Part shown: positions 53,445 through 57,909 of the stretch, piece after piece | Layout of the letters: every line of letters starts with the position of its first letter | Position numbering within the stretch: position 1 is the first letter of the stretch | Position numbers and translations under genes: made by a program | NCBI GenBank assembly: GCA_016192455.1 | Contig: JACPUC010000026.1 | Coordinates: 198,821-262,820, forward strand | Length of the DNA stretch: 64,000 nt | Origin: Candidatus Tectimicrobiota bacterium | Lineage (GTDB): Bacteria; JACPUC01 | Reading direction: 5' to 3' | Notes under the pieces: generated by a model | Seen by the model: the letters and a program-made list of their open reading frames with translations, nothing else | The model's database searches: none | What the model was told of the DNA's origin: nothing

Positions 53445-54416
53445 GTGACGGCAAGCTCGCCGCCTTACGGGAGCAACCCGATGTGGTTCGCGCAGCCCCT
53501 CAATCGCGGTCTGACGTGGCTCGTGCCGCGCCTGCCCGATGCGCTGGTGCGCCGGGTGGCCGCTCCGTACCTGGCCGGGGAGAGCCGCGTCGACGCCCTG
53601 GACCTGCTGAAGAGCCTGGCGGCGCGCGGCATTCGGGGCGCCCTCAACTACCTCGGCGAAGAGGTGGAGAATCCGGAGCAAGCCGAGGCGGCGCTCAACG
53701 AGTATCTCCAAGTGCTGGATGCCGTCGCCTCGCTCGGCGCCGATGCTTACGCCTCGATGAAACCGTCGCAGCTCGGCCTGCGTCCCCGTGGCGTGGGGAT
53801 GGAGGGCTGCATCGAGCGTTGCCTGCACCTGGCGCGGCGCGCGGCGCGGGATGGGCTCTTTCTGCGCCTCGAGATGGAGGACGCCACCTACACCGACGCC
53901 ACCCTCGAACTCTGGCGGCGCGTGCATTGCGAGTACGCCAACGTCGGGCTGGTGCTGCAGGCGCGCCTCTTCCGCAGCGCGGCGGATGCCGCCACCCTGA
54001 TGACGGCCGCCGCGGCGGTGCGGCTGTGCAAGGGCATCTACATCGAGCCGCGGGACATTGCCTACACCAGGGATGCCGACATCCGCGCCAGCTACCTCCG
54101 TCTCGCCGAGCGGCTCATGGAGGGGAATGGTTTCCTCGCCTTCGCCACCCACGACGACTGGCTTGTCGAGCGACTCCTCGAACGGCTTACGGAGCGCGCT
54201 TTCCCAGCCGAGCGCTACGAGTTCCAGCTCCTCCTCGGGGTGCGCCCCCACCTGATCGGTGAACTGCTGCGGCGCGGCCAGCCGCTGCGCCTCTACCTGC
54301 CGTACGGCCCGTGGTCCCAGGCGCGGGCTTACGCCCAGCGACGCATGCGCAAGAATCCCGCCCTTGCCTACCACCTGCTGAAGAACACACTCCTCTCAGG
54401 GGGTGCCCGCGCCTAG
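53445..54416 (+). CDS. monofunctional proline dehydrogenase family protein
   Basis: YLAGES, NYLGEE, LEMED, VRLCKGIY, FATHD, FQLLLGV and YLPYG.W..Y..RR. Confidence 0.88.
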   Translation: MTASSPPYGSNPMWFAQPLNRGLTWLVPRLPDALVRRVAAPYLAGESRVDALDLLKSLAARGIRGALNYLGEEVENPEQAEAALNEYLQVLDAVASLGADAYASMKPSQLGLRPRGVGMEGCIERCLHLARRAARDGLFLRLEMEDATYTDATLELWRRVHCEYANVGLVLQARLFRSAADAATLMTAAAAVRLCKGIYIEPRDIAYTRDADIRASYLRLAERLMEGNGFLAFATHDDWLVERLLERLTERAFPAERYEFQLLLGVRPHLIGELLRRGQPLRLYLPYGPWSQARAYAQRRMRKNPALAYHLLKNTLLSGGARA

Positions 54417-54678
54417 CCCTCCTGGCCGCGACATTGCCCCTGGCGAAGGCGGCCGGTGGCGGACGCAACCATGGAAGAGGCGCCTGGCGACACCCTACGG
54501 CGCTCCTCCAGCCGCCGTAAGGAGTTTCGGACCAGGGCGCCCTCGGGTGGTTGGGTTCTCGGCGGAGAGACTAGGTAGCCGTTGCAAGTCGCAGCCTGGT
54601 GTGCCATACTTCCGCGCAACCTACCCGACCTCTTCACTCGCGATACGCTAACGTCGTTCGTTGCAGAGGAGTTTCAGC

Positions 54679-55338
54679 ATGTCCGAGCGCTACGACATCA
54701 CCATGTATATTTGCTACGTCTGACCCTACGCCGCCCGGGCCACGGAGTGGCTCTATCGGCTGCAAGAGAAGTGGGGCGAGAACCTCAACGTCACCTACAA
54801 GTCGTTCGTCCTGGAGCAGGCCAACTCGCGCCGCGAGCCGGAGTGGAAGGTCTGGCTCGACCGCTACTTCCCGAGCCGCGACCTGCCCCCCCTGGAGGCC
54901 GCGAAGTGCGCCGCCATGCAGGGCGAGGAGGCGTTCCGGGCCTATAACATCCGCCTCTTCCGCGCCTGCCATCAGGAGAAGCTGGAGATCACCAACCAGC
55001 TCGTGCTCTACGAACTGGCGAAAGAGGTCGGGCTGGACGCCGCGTGCTTCTCCGCCGACCTGCGCAGCAAGCGGGCGCGCGAGCTGGTGGCCCAGGAGCA
55101 CGAGGAGGCGGTGGCGCGCTACGGCCTCTTCGGCGTGCCGACGATCATCTTCGAGGAGCGCGAGGCGGTCTTCGTCAAGCTCGAGCCGGGCGACTGGGAG
55201 GGGACGGACGACGAGGCGCTCTTCCGGGACATCGCAAAGATGGCCACGCGCTACCCGAAGCTCCTGGAGCTGAAGAAGCCGGACTCCGAAGTGCTGGCCA
55301 GGAAGTCCGCCGAGAAGTACGCCAAGCGCCAGGCGTAA
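54679..55338 (+). CDS. DsbA/FrnE-like thioredoxin-fold selenoprotein, CxxU (Sec at codon 15, TGA 54721-54723)
   Basis: AGAGGAG RBS, then MSERYDITMYIC-Y-V-TGA-PY. The frame continues without a stop into the tracked ORF 54916-55338 (GVPT cis-Pro loop). A SECIS-like hairpin lies 20 nt after the TGA. Confidence 0.85.
54737..54753 (+). promoter_or_regulatory. bacterial SECIS-like stem-loop
   Basis: GGGCCAC-GGA-GUGGCUC: a 7-bp stem with one G-U pair and a G-initiated apical loop starting 20 nt after the UGA. Confidence 0.6.
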
Positions 55339-55537
55339 CGTCGTTGCCGCCCAGCCTCCGCCGGCGCCCTTCTGGCACAACGTCTCCCTGCGACGCCTAC
55401 CAGCCGCCTCGCCGCCGCGAGCGGCTGGTAGGCTGTGTGCGCCTTCCGCCGAGCGCAACCGACTGTTACGCCCCATCGCTCCCGCCCACTTCCCATCACC
55501 TGTTTCCAGCGAAGTCTCCCTCCACGACTCCAAACAC

Positions 55538-55604: not shown

Positions 55605-55955
55605 TTAGAGTACATGGTTGTGGGAGTTTGTGCGGAAGTCCTGCGGCAATGTTCCACGTGGAACATCGGTTTGAGTTGTGCTGATCATCTGCCTCGCTGC
55701 CACCAGTTTGAGTACGCCTCCGAGGCTGGAACGGAGTACAACCTCCTGTTGTTCAGTCCGTGGTTTCCGGCATCCGCATCCTCCAACGTCGTGCCAAACC
55801 GTTGCTGCGTACCGCCAGGGCATCCCGCCTGTCTCCGTCCTCAACATCTTCACCAGCCCGCCTGAGGCTGTTACAACCAAGATCACCGTGTCCAACGCAT
55901 AGCCTTCGGCCTTGGTGATCACGAGTTCTTTAAGGTCCGGATTCTGGGGTTCCAT
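55605..55955 (-). CDS. hypothetical protein or gene remnant downstream of arsC
   Basis: Same strand as the ars operon and starts 37 bp after arsC; no recognisable motif. Confidence 0.3.
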   Translation of the reverse strand: MEPQNPDLKELVITKAEGYALDTVILVVTASGGLVKMLRTETGGMPWRYAATVWHDVGGCGCRKPRTEQQEVVLRSSLGGVLKLVAARQMISTTQTDVPRGTLPQDFRTNSHNHVL

Positions 55956-55991
55956 GAGGCGAAGGACGCCTGAAGGGGATGAGCCCTTTTC

Positions 55992-56402
55992 TCACAGCCG
56001 CGCGAGTAATGTCTCCACCTTGTCCCGGATCATATCTCGGATGCTGCGGAAGTCCTTGAATGCCATCTCTTTCGGATCAGGAATGTGCCATTCTTCCCGG
56101 ATTTTTGCTGGTACGAACGGGCAGGCGTCCCCGCAACCCATGGAGATGACGGCATCGTACTCGTTCATCGGAATCTCGGCGAGGGACTTGGAGCTATGGA
56201 TGGAAAGGTCGTAACCGACCTCGTTCATGGCTTCGATGGCTTTCTGGTTGAGGCGCCCGGAAGGCCGTGCTCCAGCGCTCCAGGCCTCGATCCGTGCACC
56301 GCCGAGCATCCGAGCGAAGGCTTCAGCCATCTGACTCCGGTTGGAGTTCTCGATGCAGACGAAGAGGACGCGCTTGCGACCGCGGGAGTCGTTGGGCTGC
56401 AT
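55992..56402 (-). CDS. arsC: LMW-PTP-fold arsenate reductase
   Basis: VLFVCIENSNRSQMAE P-loop, SAG and MGCGDACP; follows acr3. Confidence 0.85.
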   Translation of the reverse strand: MQPNDSRGRKRVLFVCIENSNRSQMAEAFARMLGGARIEAWSAGARPSGRLNQKAIEAMNEVGYDLSIHSSKSLAEIPMNEYDAVISMGCGDACPFVPAKIREEWHIPDPKEMAFKDFRSIRDMIRDKVETLLARL

Positions 56403-56422
56403 CGTTCTTCCTCAACGACGTA

Positions 56423-57541
56423 TCAAGCGGGGGTCGAAACGGTGAAGAACATGCGCTGGAACCGGAGCGCCACGTTCACCAGGCTGATGAGCACGGGCAC
56501 CTCCACCAATGGACCGACGACCGCCGCGAAGGCGGCGCCCGAGTTGATGCCGAAGACAGCGACCGCCACGGCGATGGCCAGCTCGAAGTTGTTGCTGGCC
56601 GCGGTGAACGACAAGGCGGTCGTCTTCGCGTAGTCCGCTCCGATCTTCCTGCCCATCCAGAAGGAGACCAGAAACATCAGCACGAAGTAGAACAGCAATG
56701 GCACGGCAATCCGCACGACATCCAGCGGAATCCCCACGATCAGCTCGCCTTTCAGGCTGAACATCACCAGGATTGTAAAAAGGAGCGCGGCCAGCGTAAT
56801 CGGGCTGATCTTCGGGATGAACGACCTCTCGTACCAGGTCTTGCCCTTCACCTTCAGCAGCACAAAGCGCGTGATCATGCCGGCAAGGAAGGGAATGCCG
56901 AGGTAAATGAAGACGCTCTCCGCGATCTGGCCCATGCTCACCTTGACGATGCTCCCGCTCAGGCCGAAGAGTGGAGGGAGGACCGTGATGAAGACGTACG
57001 CGTAGGCGCTGTAGAAGAGTACTTGGAAGACACTGTTGAACGCTACTAGGCCGGCGGCGTACTCGGTGTCCCCCTCGGCCAGTTCGTTCCACACGATGAC
57101 CATTGCGATGCAGCGCGCCAGGCCGATCATGATCAGCCCGACCATGTACGCCGGGTAACCCCTCAGGAAGAAGATCGCCAGGAAGAACATCAGCATCGGC
57201 CCGACGATCCAGTTCAGCACCAGTGAGACCCCAAGGACCTTCCAGTTGCGGAATACGTCCCTGAGTTCCTCGTATTTCACCTTCGCAAGCGGTGGGTACA
57301 TCATGAGGATCAGTCCGACGGCGATCGGGATGTTCGTCGTGCCGACTTGGAACCGGTTGATGAATGCATCGACGCTAGGGAGAGCGTAGCCGGCGCCGAC
57401 CCCCACCGCCATGCCCAGAAAAATCCACAGGGTCAGGTATCGGTCCAAGAAAGGGAGATTCGCGGCAACGCCATGGGACGACTGGCGTATGGCGCCGTCC
57501 ATGACAGACCGATTCGGTGTGGTGGTCTGAGCATCGCTCAT
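56423..57541 (-). CDS. acr3: ACR3 family arsenite efflux transporter
   Basis: [28 protein letters not shown] and [11 protein letters not shown]. Confidence 0.95.
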
Positions 57542-57909
57542 CGTGATGTCTCCTCGCAACCAGGCGGGCAGCATCCACCCGTCATGCGCAGCCTCTTCGC
57601 CCGGGCCTGGTCTCCCTCGAGCTCGGGCGCCTCCTGGAAACAACTGCCCAGACAGTCGAGCAGCTTCGCGTGGAAGCTGGTGCGAGCCTCCGTCAGCGAA
57701 TAGAAGCACCAGCGGCCGTCCTTGCGGACCTCCACCAGACCGGCTTCCCGCAGATAGCGCAGATGGCGAGAGGCCGTCGGCTGGGGAACTTGCAGCACCT
57801 CGACAAGATCCCCCACGCACATCTCGTCCTCGCGCAGCAGCAGGAGGATGCGCAGACGGATCGGGTCGGTGAACGCCCGGAACATGCGGTTAACGGCCGC
57901 GGTTCTCAT
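57538..57909 (-). CDS. arsR: ArsR/SmtB family repressor
   Basis: [30 protein letters not shown] and C-terminal CC; 4-bp overlap with acr3. Confidence 0.9.

What the first reader, a model, noticed from the sequence alone, without database searches (positions are those of the whole stretch)
54679..55338. Hidden selenoprotein: DsbA-fold oxidoreductase with CxxU and a SECIS-like hairpin
Seen in sequence: RBS plus ATG at 54679, TGC-TAC-GTC-TGA-CCC-TAC (C-Y-V-U-P-Y), and a 219-aa frame with no other stop and a GVPT cis-Pro loop. The hairpin GGGCCAC-GGA-GUGGCUC has its loop 20 nt after the UGA. Established: DsbA/FrnE-like proteins carry a CxxC-P-aromatic motif at this position, and bacterial SECIS elements sit just 3' of the UGA with a G-initiated loop. 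Inference: this is a Sec redox enzyme that standard callers truncate to 140 aa. DsbA-like selenoproteins are a known class, but this gene's partner and function are unknown.
Basis: partly seen in the sequence, partly recalled or inferred. Interest (0 to 1): 0.75.

Follow-up and report, generated by a model that had tools for sequence, protein, structure and literature searches.

The report
Mis-called DsbA-like selenoprotein gene (C-x-x-U)
This is a real gene for a small cytoplasmic redox enzyme whose catalytic residue is selenocysteine, encoded by an in-frame TGA that gene callers read as a stop; such DsbA-like selenoproteins are known, so the main gains are a corrected gene call and an uncatalogued active-site variant.

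Summary
There is an ATG at 54679 with a GAGGAG ribosome-binding site, an in-frame TGA at 54721-54723, an open 219-codon frame and the stated hairpin.

The selenoprotein reading is strongly supported.
- All 44 homologous loci from other species-level genomes (Nitrospinota, Tectomicrobia, one Planctomycetia MAG) carry TGA at the same codon, inside an invariant C-Y-V-U-P motif.
- The three codons before the TGA show only synonymous changes.
- The 7-bp hairpin with a GGA loop 20 nt after the UGA is present in all 45 sequences. It shows a covarying closing pair and frozen synonymous sites.
- The genome encodes tRNA-Sec, selA, selB and selD.

Sec15 occupies the first, nucleophilic position of the canonical C-P-x-C motif. 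The usual second Cys is Ala18. Cys12 replaces an Asp that stands there in 83 of 84 full-length Cys-type relatives.

The protein is cytoplasmic. Its closest relatives are the single-Cys DsbA-like proteins (DR2335 of Deinococcus, and Rv2466c). DsbA-like selenoproteins are catalogued as UxxC and DxxUP; this CxxUP-x-A clade is a variant of the second form. Function is inferred only.

The parts
54665..54670 (+). Shine-Dalgarno-like GAGGAG, 8 nt before the ATG
   Evidence: Sequence read. All 44 homologues also have an AGGAG-type motif before their ATG.
54679..55338 (+). Full coding sequence of the DsbA-like selenoprotein: 219 aa plus TAA, with one in-frame TGA read as Sec
   Evidence: Translation. 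Pfam DSBA PF01323 E = 5.9e-17 over residues 7-164. AF2 pLDDT 93.2. Top Foldseek hit is DR2335, 7DK9, TM 0.79/0.82.
54712..54714 (+). Cys12 codon (TGC), 3 residues before Sec. It occupies the position of an Asp found in 83 of 84 full-length Cys-type relatives and is a candidate resolving residue.
   Evidence: Invariant in 45/45 clade members with TGC/TGT synonymous variation. Among 84 full-length Cys-type representatives this position is D in 83, N in 1 and never C. It aligns with Asp16 of Rv2466c.
54721..54723 (+). TGA = selenocysteine codon 15, at the nucleophile position (first Cys of the canonical C-P-x-C motif)
   Evidence: TGA at this codon in 45/45 genomes. Cys at the aligned position in full-length relatives. 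It aligns with Cys19 of Rv2466c and Cys24 of DR2335.
54737..54753 (+). SECIS core hairpin: 7-bp stem GGGCCAC/GUGGCUC and GGA loop (54744-54746), 20 nt after the UGA
   Evidence: Folds; the hairpin alone is -9.2 kcal/mol. It is conserved in 45/45 sequences. 98.6% of cells are paired, and the closing pair is CG/UG/UA with no C-A. The stem Ala codon is GCC in 44/44, and the stem Arg codon never ends in C or U. It meets the four numeric criteria of the bSECIS model quoted in PMC13188914.
54730..54760 (+). Possible lower-stem extension (GCCG 54730-54733 with CGGC 54757-54760) around the core hairpin, in this genome only
   Evidence: Folds (-17.7 kcal/mol for UGA+45 nt). The extension is not conserved in the homologues, so it is of uncertain relevance.
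55132..55143 (+). G152-V153-P154-T155, the cis-Pro loop of the thioredoxin fold
   Evidence: F151, G152, V153, P154 and T155 are invariant in alignments A1 and A5; in A4 V153 is nearly invariant (>=90%) and the other four are invariant.
54916..55338 (+). The truncated 140-aa ORF that a standard caller reports in place of the full gene
   Evidence: ORF listing output. P0004 in the protein collection is such a 140-aa call at 92% identity.

Best explanation
Coordinates 54679-55338 (+) encode a 219-aa cytoplasmic DsbA-fold selenoprotein.

**Shown by comparative evidence**
- UGA codon 15 is decoded as selenocysteine. A 7-bp hairpin with a GGA loop lies inside the coding sequence, 20 nt downstream, and fits the bacterial SECIS model. 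The genome supplies SelB, SelA, SelD and tRNA-Sec.
- Sec15 sits at the N-terminal cap of helix alpha1. This is the nucleophile position of the C-P-x-C motif of DsbA-like proteins.
- The canonical second Cys is Ala18.
- The protein belongs to the mostly monothiol, cytoplasmic DR2335 / Rv2466c-like branch of the DsbA superfamily (motif D-x-x-C-P-aromatic-Ala).

**Inferred**
- The selenolate of Sec15 attacks a disulfide or an S-thiolated (for example S-glutathionylated) substrate and forms a selenylsulfide intermediate.
- That intermediate is resolved either by Cys12, giving an intramolecular Cys12-Sec15 selenylsulfide, or by a low-molecular-weight thiol. The second route follows the monothiol mechanism described for Rv2466c.
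- Cys12 is the clade-specific residue that replaces the Asp found at -3 in 83 of 84 full-length Cys-type relatives.
- The physiological substrate and reductant are unknown.
For: 1. **TGA conserved in a conserved motif.** 44 of 44 homologous loci from other species-level genomes have TGA at the same codon within C-Y-V-U-P-[YF]-A-Y-R-A. The three codons before it show 24 synonymous and 0 non-synonymous variants in 40 distinct rows.
2. **Database homologues are truncated.** Predicted proteins for homologues start just after the TGA (MEWL...), as expected if callers stop at it.
3. **Cys at the aligned position in relatives.** Full-length relatives carry Cys there (D-x-x-C-P).
4. **TGA is a real stop in this clade.** 10 of 44 homologues end in TGA. 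It is also the commonest terminator of long frames in the window.
5. **The hairpin is under RNA-level selection.**
   - It is present in 45/45 sequences, with 98.6% of cells paired against 37-48% in slid controls.
   - The closing pair is C-G 15, U-G 14, U-A 11 and C-A 0; Fisher p = 0.0026, uncorrected for phylogeny.
   - The stem Ala codon is GCC in 44/44, the only zero-entropy multi-codon column in the gene.
   - The stem Arg codon is only CGG/AGG/AGA/CGA, although other Arg columns prefer CGC/CGT.
6. **The hairpin fits the bSECIS model.** It has a 3-nt loop, a 7-bp stem, G at loop position 1, 20-nt spacing and -9.2 kcal/mol.
7. **Sec machinery is present.**
   - tRNA-Sec scores 75.5 bits, and ARAGORN calls tRNA-SeC with anticodon tca.
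   - selB scores 366 bits and the adjacent selA 596 bits.
   - selD scores 389 bits and itself contains one in-frame TGA.
8. **Fold and register.**
   - Pfam DSBA.
   - AF2 pLDDT 93.2, with beta1 at 5-11 and the helix starting at 16.
   - Foldseek top hit DR2335, TM about 0.8, followed by FrnE, Rv2466c and DsbM.
   - The profile alignment puts U15 on Cys19, A18 on Cys22 and C12 on Asp16 of Rv2466c.
9. **No signal peptide.** Beta1 starts at residue 5.
10. **Precedent for the monothiol mechanism.** It is described for Rv2466c in PMC6178380.
Against: - There is no direct evidence of selenium incorporation or expression.
- The hairpin is not more stable than shuffles of the same GC-rich sequence (z = 0.01).
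- Part of the hairpin's conservation is forced by the conserved peptide R-A-[TM]-E-W-L.
- No Rfam family matches anywhere in the window.
- The covariation statistic is not corrected for phylogeny.
- The catalytic mechanism, the role of Cys12, the reductant and the substrate are all inferred from distant relatives (17-22% identity in the structure-based alignments to solved structures).
- The nearest solved relative, DR2335, has no reported function (PMC8945050).
- No gene neighbour is conserved between this window and the homologous loci.
Confidence: 0.9

Rival explanations
1. Nonsense pseudogene or assembly error. The TGA is a true stop that killed a former Cys-type DsbA-like gene, or a base-calling error in a metagenome-assembled genome.
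For: The genome is a draft of 31 contigs, 88% complete. Reads could not be inspected.
Against: The same TGA stands in 44 of 44 orthologues from other species-level genomes, with only synonymous changes in the three codons before it. A pseudogene would not keep the upstream frame, the RBS and the hairpin across about 50% protein divergence.
Confidence: 0.02
2. TGA terminates translation. The functional product starts downstream: the 140-aa ORF from ATG 54916, or a start just after the TGA as in the database calls. The upstream 14 codons would be a leader peptide or untranslated.
For: Gene callers produce such models.
Against: - In the window the first in-frame start after the TGA is ATG 54916, residue 80. 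A product from there would lack beta1, the active-site loop and helix alpha1 of the thioredoxin fold.
- The N-terminal segment, including the active-site motif, is the most conserved part of the protein.
- Full-length Cys-type relatives contain this segment.
Confidence: 0.02
3. The UGA is recoded but not as Sec. It could be a reassigned TGA (Trp or Gly codes) or near-cognate read-through inserting Cys or Trp.
For: Read-through of UGA with Cys or Trp occurs at a low level in bacteria under selenium limitation (general knowledge, not tested here).
Against: - TGA ends 10 of the 44 orthologous genes and many long frames in the window, so it is not reassigned.
- The genome has a complete Sec system, including a Sec-containing selD.
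- The position is Cys in relatives, the classic Sec/Cys pair.
- A SECIS-type hairpin is under selection.
Confidence: 0.03
4. It is a real selenoprotein, but Cys12 is not a redox partner. The enzyme would work as a pure mono-selenol (glutaredoxin- or mycoredoxin-like) reductase or a glutathione-transferase/isomerase-like enzyme, as in kappa-class GST and HCCA isomerase. Cys12 would only tune or shield the selenolate, or bind a metal or metalloid together with Sec.
For: - The wider family is mainly monothiol: the +3 residue is Ala, Val, Ser or Thr in 76 of 84 representatives.
- Kappa GST and HCCA isomerase are detectable relatives.
- Rv2466c can use a monothiol mechanism (PMC6178380).
- In this window the gene lies next to arsC and acr3.
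Against: - Cys12 is invariant in 45/45 clade members, and it replaces an Asp present in 83 of 84 full-length Cys-type relatives. This points to a specific new role.
- C-x-x-U spacing is the usual spacing of selenylsulfide couples.
- The arsenic-gene neighbourhood is not conserved in the 44 homologous loci.
Confidence: 0.4

Closest known systems
DsbA-like selenoprotein 'form 2' (PF01323, motif DxxUP; catalogue of Zhang et al. 2026, PMC13188914, citing Peng et al. 2016)
   Same: Both have the DsbA fold, Sec followed by Pro at the nucleophile position and no Cys at +3. Two loci of this type (F-D-[YF]-L-U-P-F-V, in genome G006) are 30-32% identical to the window protein and have their TGA at the same aligned codon.
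   Different: The Asp at -3 that defines the DxxUP motif is Cys in all 45 members of the window's clade, giving C-Y-V-U-P-[YF]-A. The catalogue's representative sequence could not be fetched, so whether its authors would lump this clade with form 2 is untested.
DsbA-like selenoprotein 'form 1' (UxxC; Sargasso Sea selenoproteome, Zhang et al. 2005, PMC1088965)
   Same: Both have the DsbA fold with Sec at the first position of the C-P-x-C motif. The same genome carries a candidate of this type (D-Y-L-U-P-W-C) about 100 kb upstream on the same contig.
   Different: The window protein has Ala, not Cys, at +3 (U-P-Y-A), so the U-x-x-C couple is absent.
DR2335 of Deinococcus radiodurans (PDB 7DK9; C24S mutant 7DKA), a single-Cys cytoplasmic DsbA-like protein
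   Same: It is the best match by sequence (E = 5e-10 for the single sequence, 1.8e-33 for the profile) and by structure (TM 0.79/0.82, rmsd 2.5 A). Its motif F-D-F-L-C-P-Y-A-W-R-G has the same P-Y-A after the nucleophile.
   Different: It has Cys instead of Sec and Asp instead of Cys at -3, at 22% identity. No function or expression data are reported for it (PMC8945050).
Rv2466c / mycoredoxin-2 of Mycobacterium tuberculosis (PF22234; PDB 4NXI, 4ZIL, 5XUR)
   Same: It is a cytoplasmic DsbA-like reductase and a profile-level homologue (E about 3e-25), with Foldseek TM about 0.63-0.75. A monothiol mechanism through the first Cys is described for it (PMC6178380).
   Different: It has a C-P-W-C dithiol motif and depends on mycothiol. 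The window protein does not reach the PF22234 model and comes from lineages not known to make mycothiol (general knowledge).
Rdx-type CxxU selenoproteins (SelW-like and relatives)
   Same: Both have a C-x-x-U spacing in a thioredoxin-like fold between beta1 and alpha1.
   Different: In Rdx proteins, as recalled from the literature and not tested here, Cys takes the first and Sec the second position of the canonical CxxC. Here Sec takes the first canonical position and the Cys lies 3 residues further upstream. The fold is DsbA with a helical insertion, not the minimal Rdx fold.

Membership tests
Bacterial selenoprotein gene (SelB/SECIS-dependent UGA decoding) | In-frame UGA conserved in orthologues, flanked on both sides by conserved coding sequence | tested here: met
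   45/45 genomes have TGA at the same codon. The three upstream codons show only synonymous variation.
Bacterial selenoprotein gene (SelB/SECIS-dependent UGA decoding) | Homologues with Cys at the position of Sec | tested here: met
   D-x-x-C-P in full-length relatives. The position aligns with Cys24 of DR2335 and Cys19 of Rv2466c.
Bacterial selenoprotein gene (SelB/SECIS-dependent UGA decoding) | bSECIS stem-loop: 3-9 nt loop, 4-16 bp stem, G in the first two loop positions, 16-37 nt after the UGA, MFE <= -7.5 kcal/mol (model quoted in PMC13188914) | tested here: met
   GGA loop, 7 bp, 20 nt spacing, -9.2 kcal/mol. Conserved with covariation and frozen synonymous sites. bSECISearch itself was not available.
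Bacterial selenoprotein gene (SelB/SECIS-dependent UGA decoding) | selA, selB, selC (tRNA-Sec) and selD in the genome | tested here: met
   All four score above their curated cut-offs. ARAGORN calls tRNA-SeC with anticodon tca.
Bacterial selenoprotein gene (SelB/SECIS-dependent UGA decoding) | Selenium actually incorporated at the UGA | not testable with these tools
   Needs 75Se labelling or mass spectrometry.
DsbA-like thioredoxin domain (Pfam PF01323) | Match to the family model above the gathering score | tested here: met
   62.5 bits against a cut-off of 25.6, residues 7-164.
DsbA-like thioredoxin domain (Pfam PF01323) | Thioredoxin fold with an inserted helical domain and a cis-Pro loop | tested here: met
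   AF2 pLDDT 93.2 with a helical insert at about 45-148. The Foldseek hits are all DsbA-like proteins. V153-P154-T155 are invariant in alignments A1 and A5; in A4 V153 is >=90% conserved.
Classical DsbA/FrnE dithiol oxidoreductase | C-P-x-C active-site pair | tested here: not met
   The motif is U-P-Y-A. Ala18 aligns with the second Cys (Cys22 of Rv2466c).
Periplasmic DsbA oxidase | Signal peptide or export | tested here: not met
   Beta1 begins at residue 5 and there is no hydrophobic leader. No signal-peptide predictor was run.
DsbA-like selenoprotein form 1 (UxxC) | Sec at the first and Cys at the fourth position of the motif | tested here: not met
   The motif is U-P-Y-A. A paralogue elsewhere in the genome does have U-P-W-C.
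DsbA-like selenoprotein form 2 (DxxUP) | Sec followed by Pro, no Cys at +3 | tested here: met
   The motif is U-P-Y-A. The protein is 30-32% identical to DxxUP proteins of genome G006.
DsbA-like selenoprotein form 2 (DxxUP) | Asp three residues before Sec | tested here: not met
   This position is Cys12 in 45/45 members of the clade. It is Asp in 83 of 84 Cys-type representatives.
Rv2466c-like mycothiol-dependent reductase (Pfam PF22234) | Match to the family model | tested here: not met
   PF22234 is not among the hits at E <= 0.1. Only profile-level homology to the Rv2466c structures was found. More distant Cys-type relatives do match it.

The most novel reading that the evidence does not exclude
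Within a family that works with a single nucleophile (Cys or Sec) and an Asp at -3 in 83 of 84 full-length Cys-type relatives, this clade has rebuilt a two-residue redox centre on the opposite side of the nucleophile. The clade consists of MAGs labelled Nitrospinota or Tectomicrobia, one Planctomycetia MAG, unclassified bacterial MAGs, and this genome. The Asp became an invariant Cys. This creates a Cys12-x-x-Sec15 selenylsulfide couple that is out of register with the canonical C-P-x-C and would act as a self-resolving reductase. Such an active-site geometry is not described for DsbA-like proteins.
Probability: 0.4. Interest if true: 0.45.

Novelty: new variant of a known kind. Interest (0 to 1): 0.3.

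Why it matters
**Annotation.** The gene and at least 44 orthologues are truncated in the protein collections searched here, and no full-length Sec form was returned. No NCBIfam model reaches its cut-off for the protein. Correcting the call adds a selenoprotein to the selenoproteomes of Nitrospinota and Tectomicrobia, groups that include marine nitrite oxidisers, and of this genome.

**Biology.** The clade offers a natural experiment. A monothiol DsbA-like scaffold combines a Cys-to-Sec change at the nucleophile with an Asp-to-Cys change at -3. This could show how selenylsulfide centres arise.

**Limits.** DsbA-like selenoproteins have been known since 2005, and the function of the whole DR2335-like branch is unknown. 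This is an incremental find, not a surprise.

Tried and rejected
- **Rfam scan of the whole window** found nothing. This is uninformative for a short SECIS hairpin inside a coding sequence.
- **Stability of the single-sequence hairpin** against shuffles gave z = 0.01. It was rejected as evidence either way, and comparative evidence was used instead.
- **The search for related loci with the 30-sequence alignment** failed because no stretch was conserved enough. A closer subset worked.
- **Search for a conserved partner gene.**
  - In 28 of 44 homologous loci the upstream neighbour is DUF4202, with a TP_methylase (CobA-type) gene recurring among the upstream ORFs (29 loci) and TauE downstream in 19.
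  - In this window the neighbours are proline dehydrogenase and a convergent arsC/acr3 unit.
  - DUF4202 sits on another contig of this genome.
  - No partner can therefore be assigned, and a functional link to the arsenic genes was rejected as unsupported.
- **'Relatives' genome search**: the 40 genomes offered were related only at domain level. Just one had a distant DxxUP homologue.
- **Literature on 7DK9 and DR2335**: no functional paper was found in the library.
- **Cys12-Sec15 distance in the AF2 model**: the coordinates are not exposed to the scripting box.
- **TGA reassignment**: considered and rejected.
Full report
**1. Observation**

The region was read directly.
- GAGGAG at 54665-54670 precedes ATG 54679.
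- The frame reads M-S-E-R-Y-D-I-T-M-Y-I-C-Y-V-(TGA)-P-Y-A-A-R, with the TGA at 54721-54723.
- The frame then stays open to TAA at 55336-55338, giving 219 codons.
- The hairpin GGGCCAC-GGA-GUGGCUC lies at 54737-54753. Its loop begins 20 nt after the UGA.
- A mechanical ORF list reports only the 140-aa piece 54916-55338.

**2. Is it more than chance?**

On its own the hairpin is not special. In this GC-rich stretch (66% over 54000-54999) its folding energy equals that of shuffles (z = 0.01). Rfam finds nothing in the window. The case rests on comparison across genomes.

A search of 5.8 billion predicted proteins returned 65 relatives.
- Almost all are cut at the N-terminus. They begin at M-E-W-L or later, which is just after the position of the TGA.
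- The only full-length ones in that first alignment carry Cys at the aligned position.

I then fetched the DNA of 44 homologous loci. They come from one-genome-per-species records labelled Nitrospinota, Nitrospinaceae, Tectomicrobia, one Planctomycetia or unclassified MAGs, at 47-59% protein identity.
- Every one has TGA at the same codon, inside C-Y-V-U-P-[YF]-A-Y-R-A.
- Each has an ATG and an AGGAG-type ribosome-binding site a few codons upstream.
- The three codons before the TGA (Cys, Tyr, Val) show 24 synonymous and no non-synonymous variants among 40 distinct sequences. That segment is therefore translated in this frame.
- Ten of the 44 genes end in TGA. TGA is also the commonest terminator of long frames in the window. 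The codon is therefore not reassigned.

**3. The SECIS element**

The hairpin G[GA]GCCA[CU]-GGA-[GA]UGGCU[CUG] is present in all 45 sequences.
- Counting pairs on the alignment gives 98.6% of cells paired. Sliding the 3' partners by 1-3 columns gives 37-48%.
- The closing pair occurs as C-G (15), U-G (14) and U-A (11), and never as C-A. The Fisher p-value is 0.0026, not corrected for phylogeny.
- The amino acids R-A-[TM]-E-W-L are conserved, so I tested synonymous sites.
  - The Ala codon in the stem is GCC in 44 of 44. It is the only multi-codon column of the whole gene with zero codon entropy; the other conserved Ala columns have 0.56-1.6 bits.
  - The stem Arg codon ends only in G or A, both of which pair with U, although other Arg columns prefer CGC or CGT.

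This is selection on the RNA, not only on the protein.

The element also meets the numeric criteria of the published bacterial SECIS model: loop 3-9 nt, stem 4-16 bp, G in the first two loop positions, 16-37 nt spacing and MFE <= -7.5 kcal/mol (PMC13188914). Here the loop is GGA, the stem is 7 bp, the spacing is 20 nt and the energy is -9.2 kcal/mol.

**4. Sec machinery**

The window's genome is G000, 4.46 Mb in 31 contigs and 88% complete.
- tRNA-Sec scores 75.5 bits. ARAGORN calls tRNA-SeC with anticodon tca.
- selB scores 366 bits and the adjacent selA 596 bits.
- selD scores 389 bits and itself contains one in-frame TGA.

**5. What the protein is**

- Pfam DSBA matches residues 7-164 with E = 5.9e-17. 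No NCBIfam model reaches its cut-off.
- An AlphaFold2 model built on a full-length alignment has mean pLDDT 93.2. Beta1 spans 5-11 and the first helix starts at residue 16.
- Foldseek against the PDB ranks DR2335 of Deinococcus radiodurans first (7DK9; TM 0.79/0.82). DR2335 is a DsbA-like protein with a single Cys. FrnE, YjbH, Rv2466c and DsbM follow, and these four are cytoplasmic.
- There is no signal peptide, so this is a cytoplasmic protein and not a periplasmic DsbA oxidase.

**6. The register of the active site**

A profile of the family aligns to Rv2466c (E about 3e-25) as follows:
- the Sec column falls on Cys19, the first (nucleophilic) Cys of C-P-W-C;
- Ala18 falls on Cys22;
- Cys12 falls on Asp16.

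DR2335 reads F-D-F-L-C-P-Y-A-W-R-G. A second candidate selenoprotein in the same genome reads D-Y-L-U-P-W-C.

I then searched 1.84 billion cluster representatives with the family profile. Among the top 150 hits, 84 are full-length Cys-type proteins.
- The residue at -3 is Asp in 83 and Asn in 1. It is never Cys.
- The residue at +3 is Ala (51), Val (13), Cys (8), Ser (7) or Thr (5).

The family is thus mainly a monothiol D-x-x-C-P-aromatic-Ala family. The window's clade differs by two changes that occur together in 45 of 45 members: Cys to Sec at the nucleophile, and Asp to Cys at -3. C-Y-V-U is therefore not the canonical CxxC. It is a new pair shifted one turn upstream.

**7. Mechanism**

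Shown by comparison:
- UGA15 is decoded as Sec by a SelB-dependent route, directed by the hairpin inside the coding sequence.
- Sec15 sits at the N-cap of helix alpha1, where thioredoxin-fold nucleophiles sit.

Inferred:
- The selenolate attacks a disulfide or an S-thiolated protein and forms a selenylsulfide.
- This intermediate is resolved either by Cys12, or by a low-molecular-weight thiol as in the monothiol mechanism reported for Rv2466c (PMC6178380).

I cannot choose between the two resolving routes. I give about 0.4 to the Cys12 route being an actual redox couple. The substrate is unknown, and no function is reported for the closest solved relative, DR2335 (PMC8945050).

**8. Context**

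- In the window the gene stands alone. Proline dehydrogenase ends 260 nt upstream.
- Downstream, on the opposite strand, lie a 116-aa ORF without a family match, an LMWP-type arsC and an Acr3-type (SBF family) transporter gene.
- In 28 of the 44 homologous loci the upstream neighbour is DUF4202. A TP_methylase (CobA-type) gene recurs among the upstream ORFs (29 loci), and TauE lies downstream in 19.
- In this genome DUF4202 is on another contig.
- No partner is conserved across the family.

**9. Comparison with what is known**

DsbA-like selenoproteins were first described from the Sargasso Sea with the motif UxxC (PMC1088965). The 2026 catalogue lists form 1 (UxxC) and form 2 (DxxUP), both under PF01323 (PMC13188914).
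- The window protein fails the defining Cys at +3 of form 1.
- It also fails the defining Asp at -3 of form 2.
- It shares Sec-Pro and the lack of Cys at +3 with form 2. It is 30-32% identical to two DxxUP loci found in another genome.

I therefore file it as a variant next to form 2, not as a member of either form. The catalogue's representative sequence could not be compared.

Two earlier notes of this scan, on orthologues in other genomes, reached the same reading. They are not independent evidence, but they agree with it.

**10. Verdict**

This is a real gene, a real selenoprotein and a correct hairpin. The kind is known. The active-site register was mis-stated, and there is a clade-specific Cys at -3 that is worth a bench test.

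Interest is modest at 0.3. Confidence that it is a selenoprotein of this description is about 0.9.

Noticed in passing
G000 contig C31 about 97379-98000 (locus L061 from 1258, + strand); outside the window, about 100 kb upstream on the same contig: A second candidate DsbA-like selenoprotein in the same genome: M-S-A-R-R-V-I-T-L-R-E-Y-T-D-Y-L-U-P-W-C-N-N. This is the 'form 1' U-x-x-C motif with Asp at -3. It is 49% identical to the window protein over residues 60-165, and the frame ends at a second TGA. The predicted hairpin after its UGA has a UCG loop, which does not fit the G-in-first-two-positions rule.
   Followed up: partly
L014-L057, about 100 nt upstream of the DsbA-like gene (for example L046 2060-2899): In 28 of 44 homologous loci the gene directly upstream on the same strand is DUF4202 (PF13875, E = 4e-77). 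A TP_methylase (CobA-type) gene recurs among the upstream ORFs (29 loci), and a TauE/SafE exporter gene lies downstream in 19. This may be a functional neighbourhood in Nitrospinota. It is not kept in this window: DUF4202 is on contig C15.
   Followed up: partly
window 55397-55431: A perfect 11-bp inverted repeat, CTACCAGCCGC(13 nt)GCGGCTGGTAG, lies between the convergent DsbA-like gene and the minus-strand ORF 55605-55955. It has no T-run and the terminator scan did not call it. It may be a bidirectional terminator or a protein-binding site.
   Followed up: no
window 55605-57820, minus strand: An Acr3-type transporter gene (SBF family, 56423-57820), an LMWP-type arsC (55992-56402) and a 116-aa ORF without any Pfam match (55605-55955) run convergently towards the selenoprotein gene. 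No link to the selenoprotein is supported.
   Followed up: partly
G000 contig C3 190907-191827 (L012): selD of this genome contains one in-frame TGA, so selenophosphate synthetase is itself a selenoprotein here.
   Followed up: no
G006 contigs C515 and C517 (L059, L060): Two near-identical short contigs of another genome each carry a DxxUP ('form 2') DsbA-like gene with an in-frame TGA, F-F-D-[YF]-L-U-P-F-V-Y-R-T. They may be a recent duplicate or strain variants in a MAG.
   Followed up: no
protein collection hits P0044, P0045, P0048, P0051 and about a quarter of the top 150 representatives: Many more distant family members are also N-terminally truncated just after the active-site position. 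Unrecognised Sec forms may therefore be common across this DsbA-like branch, beyond the C-Y-V-U clade.
   Followed up: no
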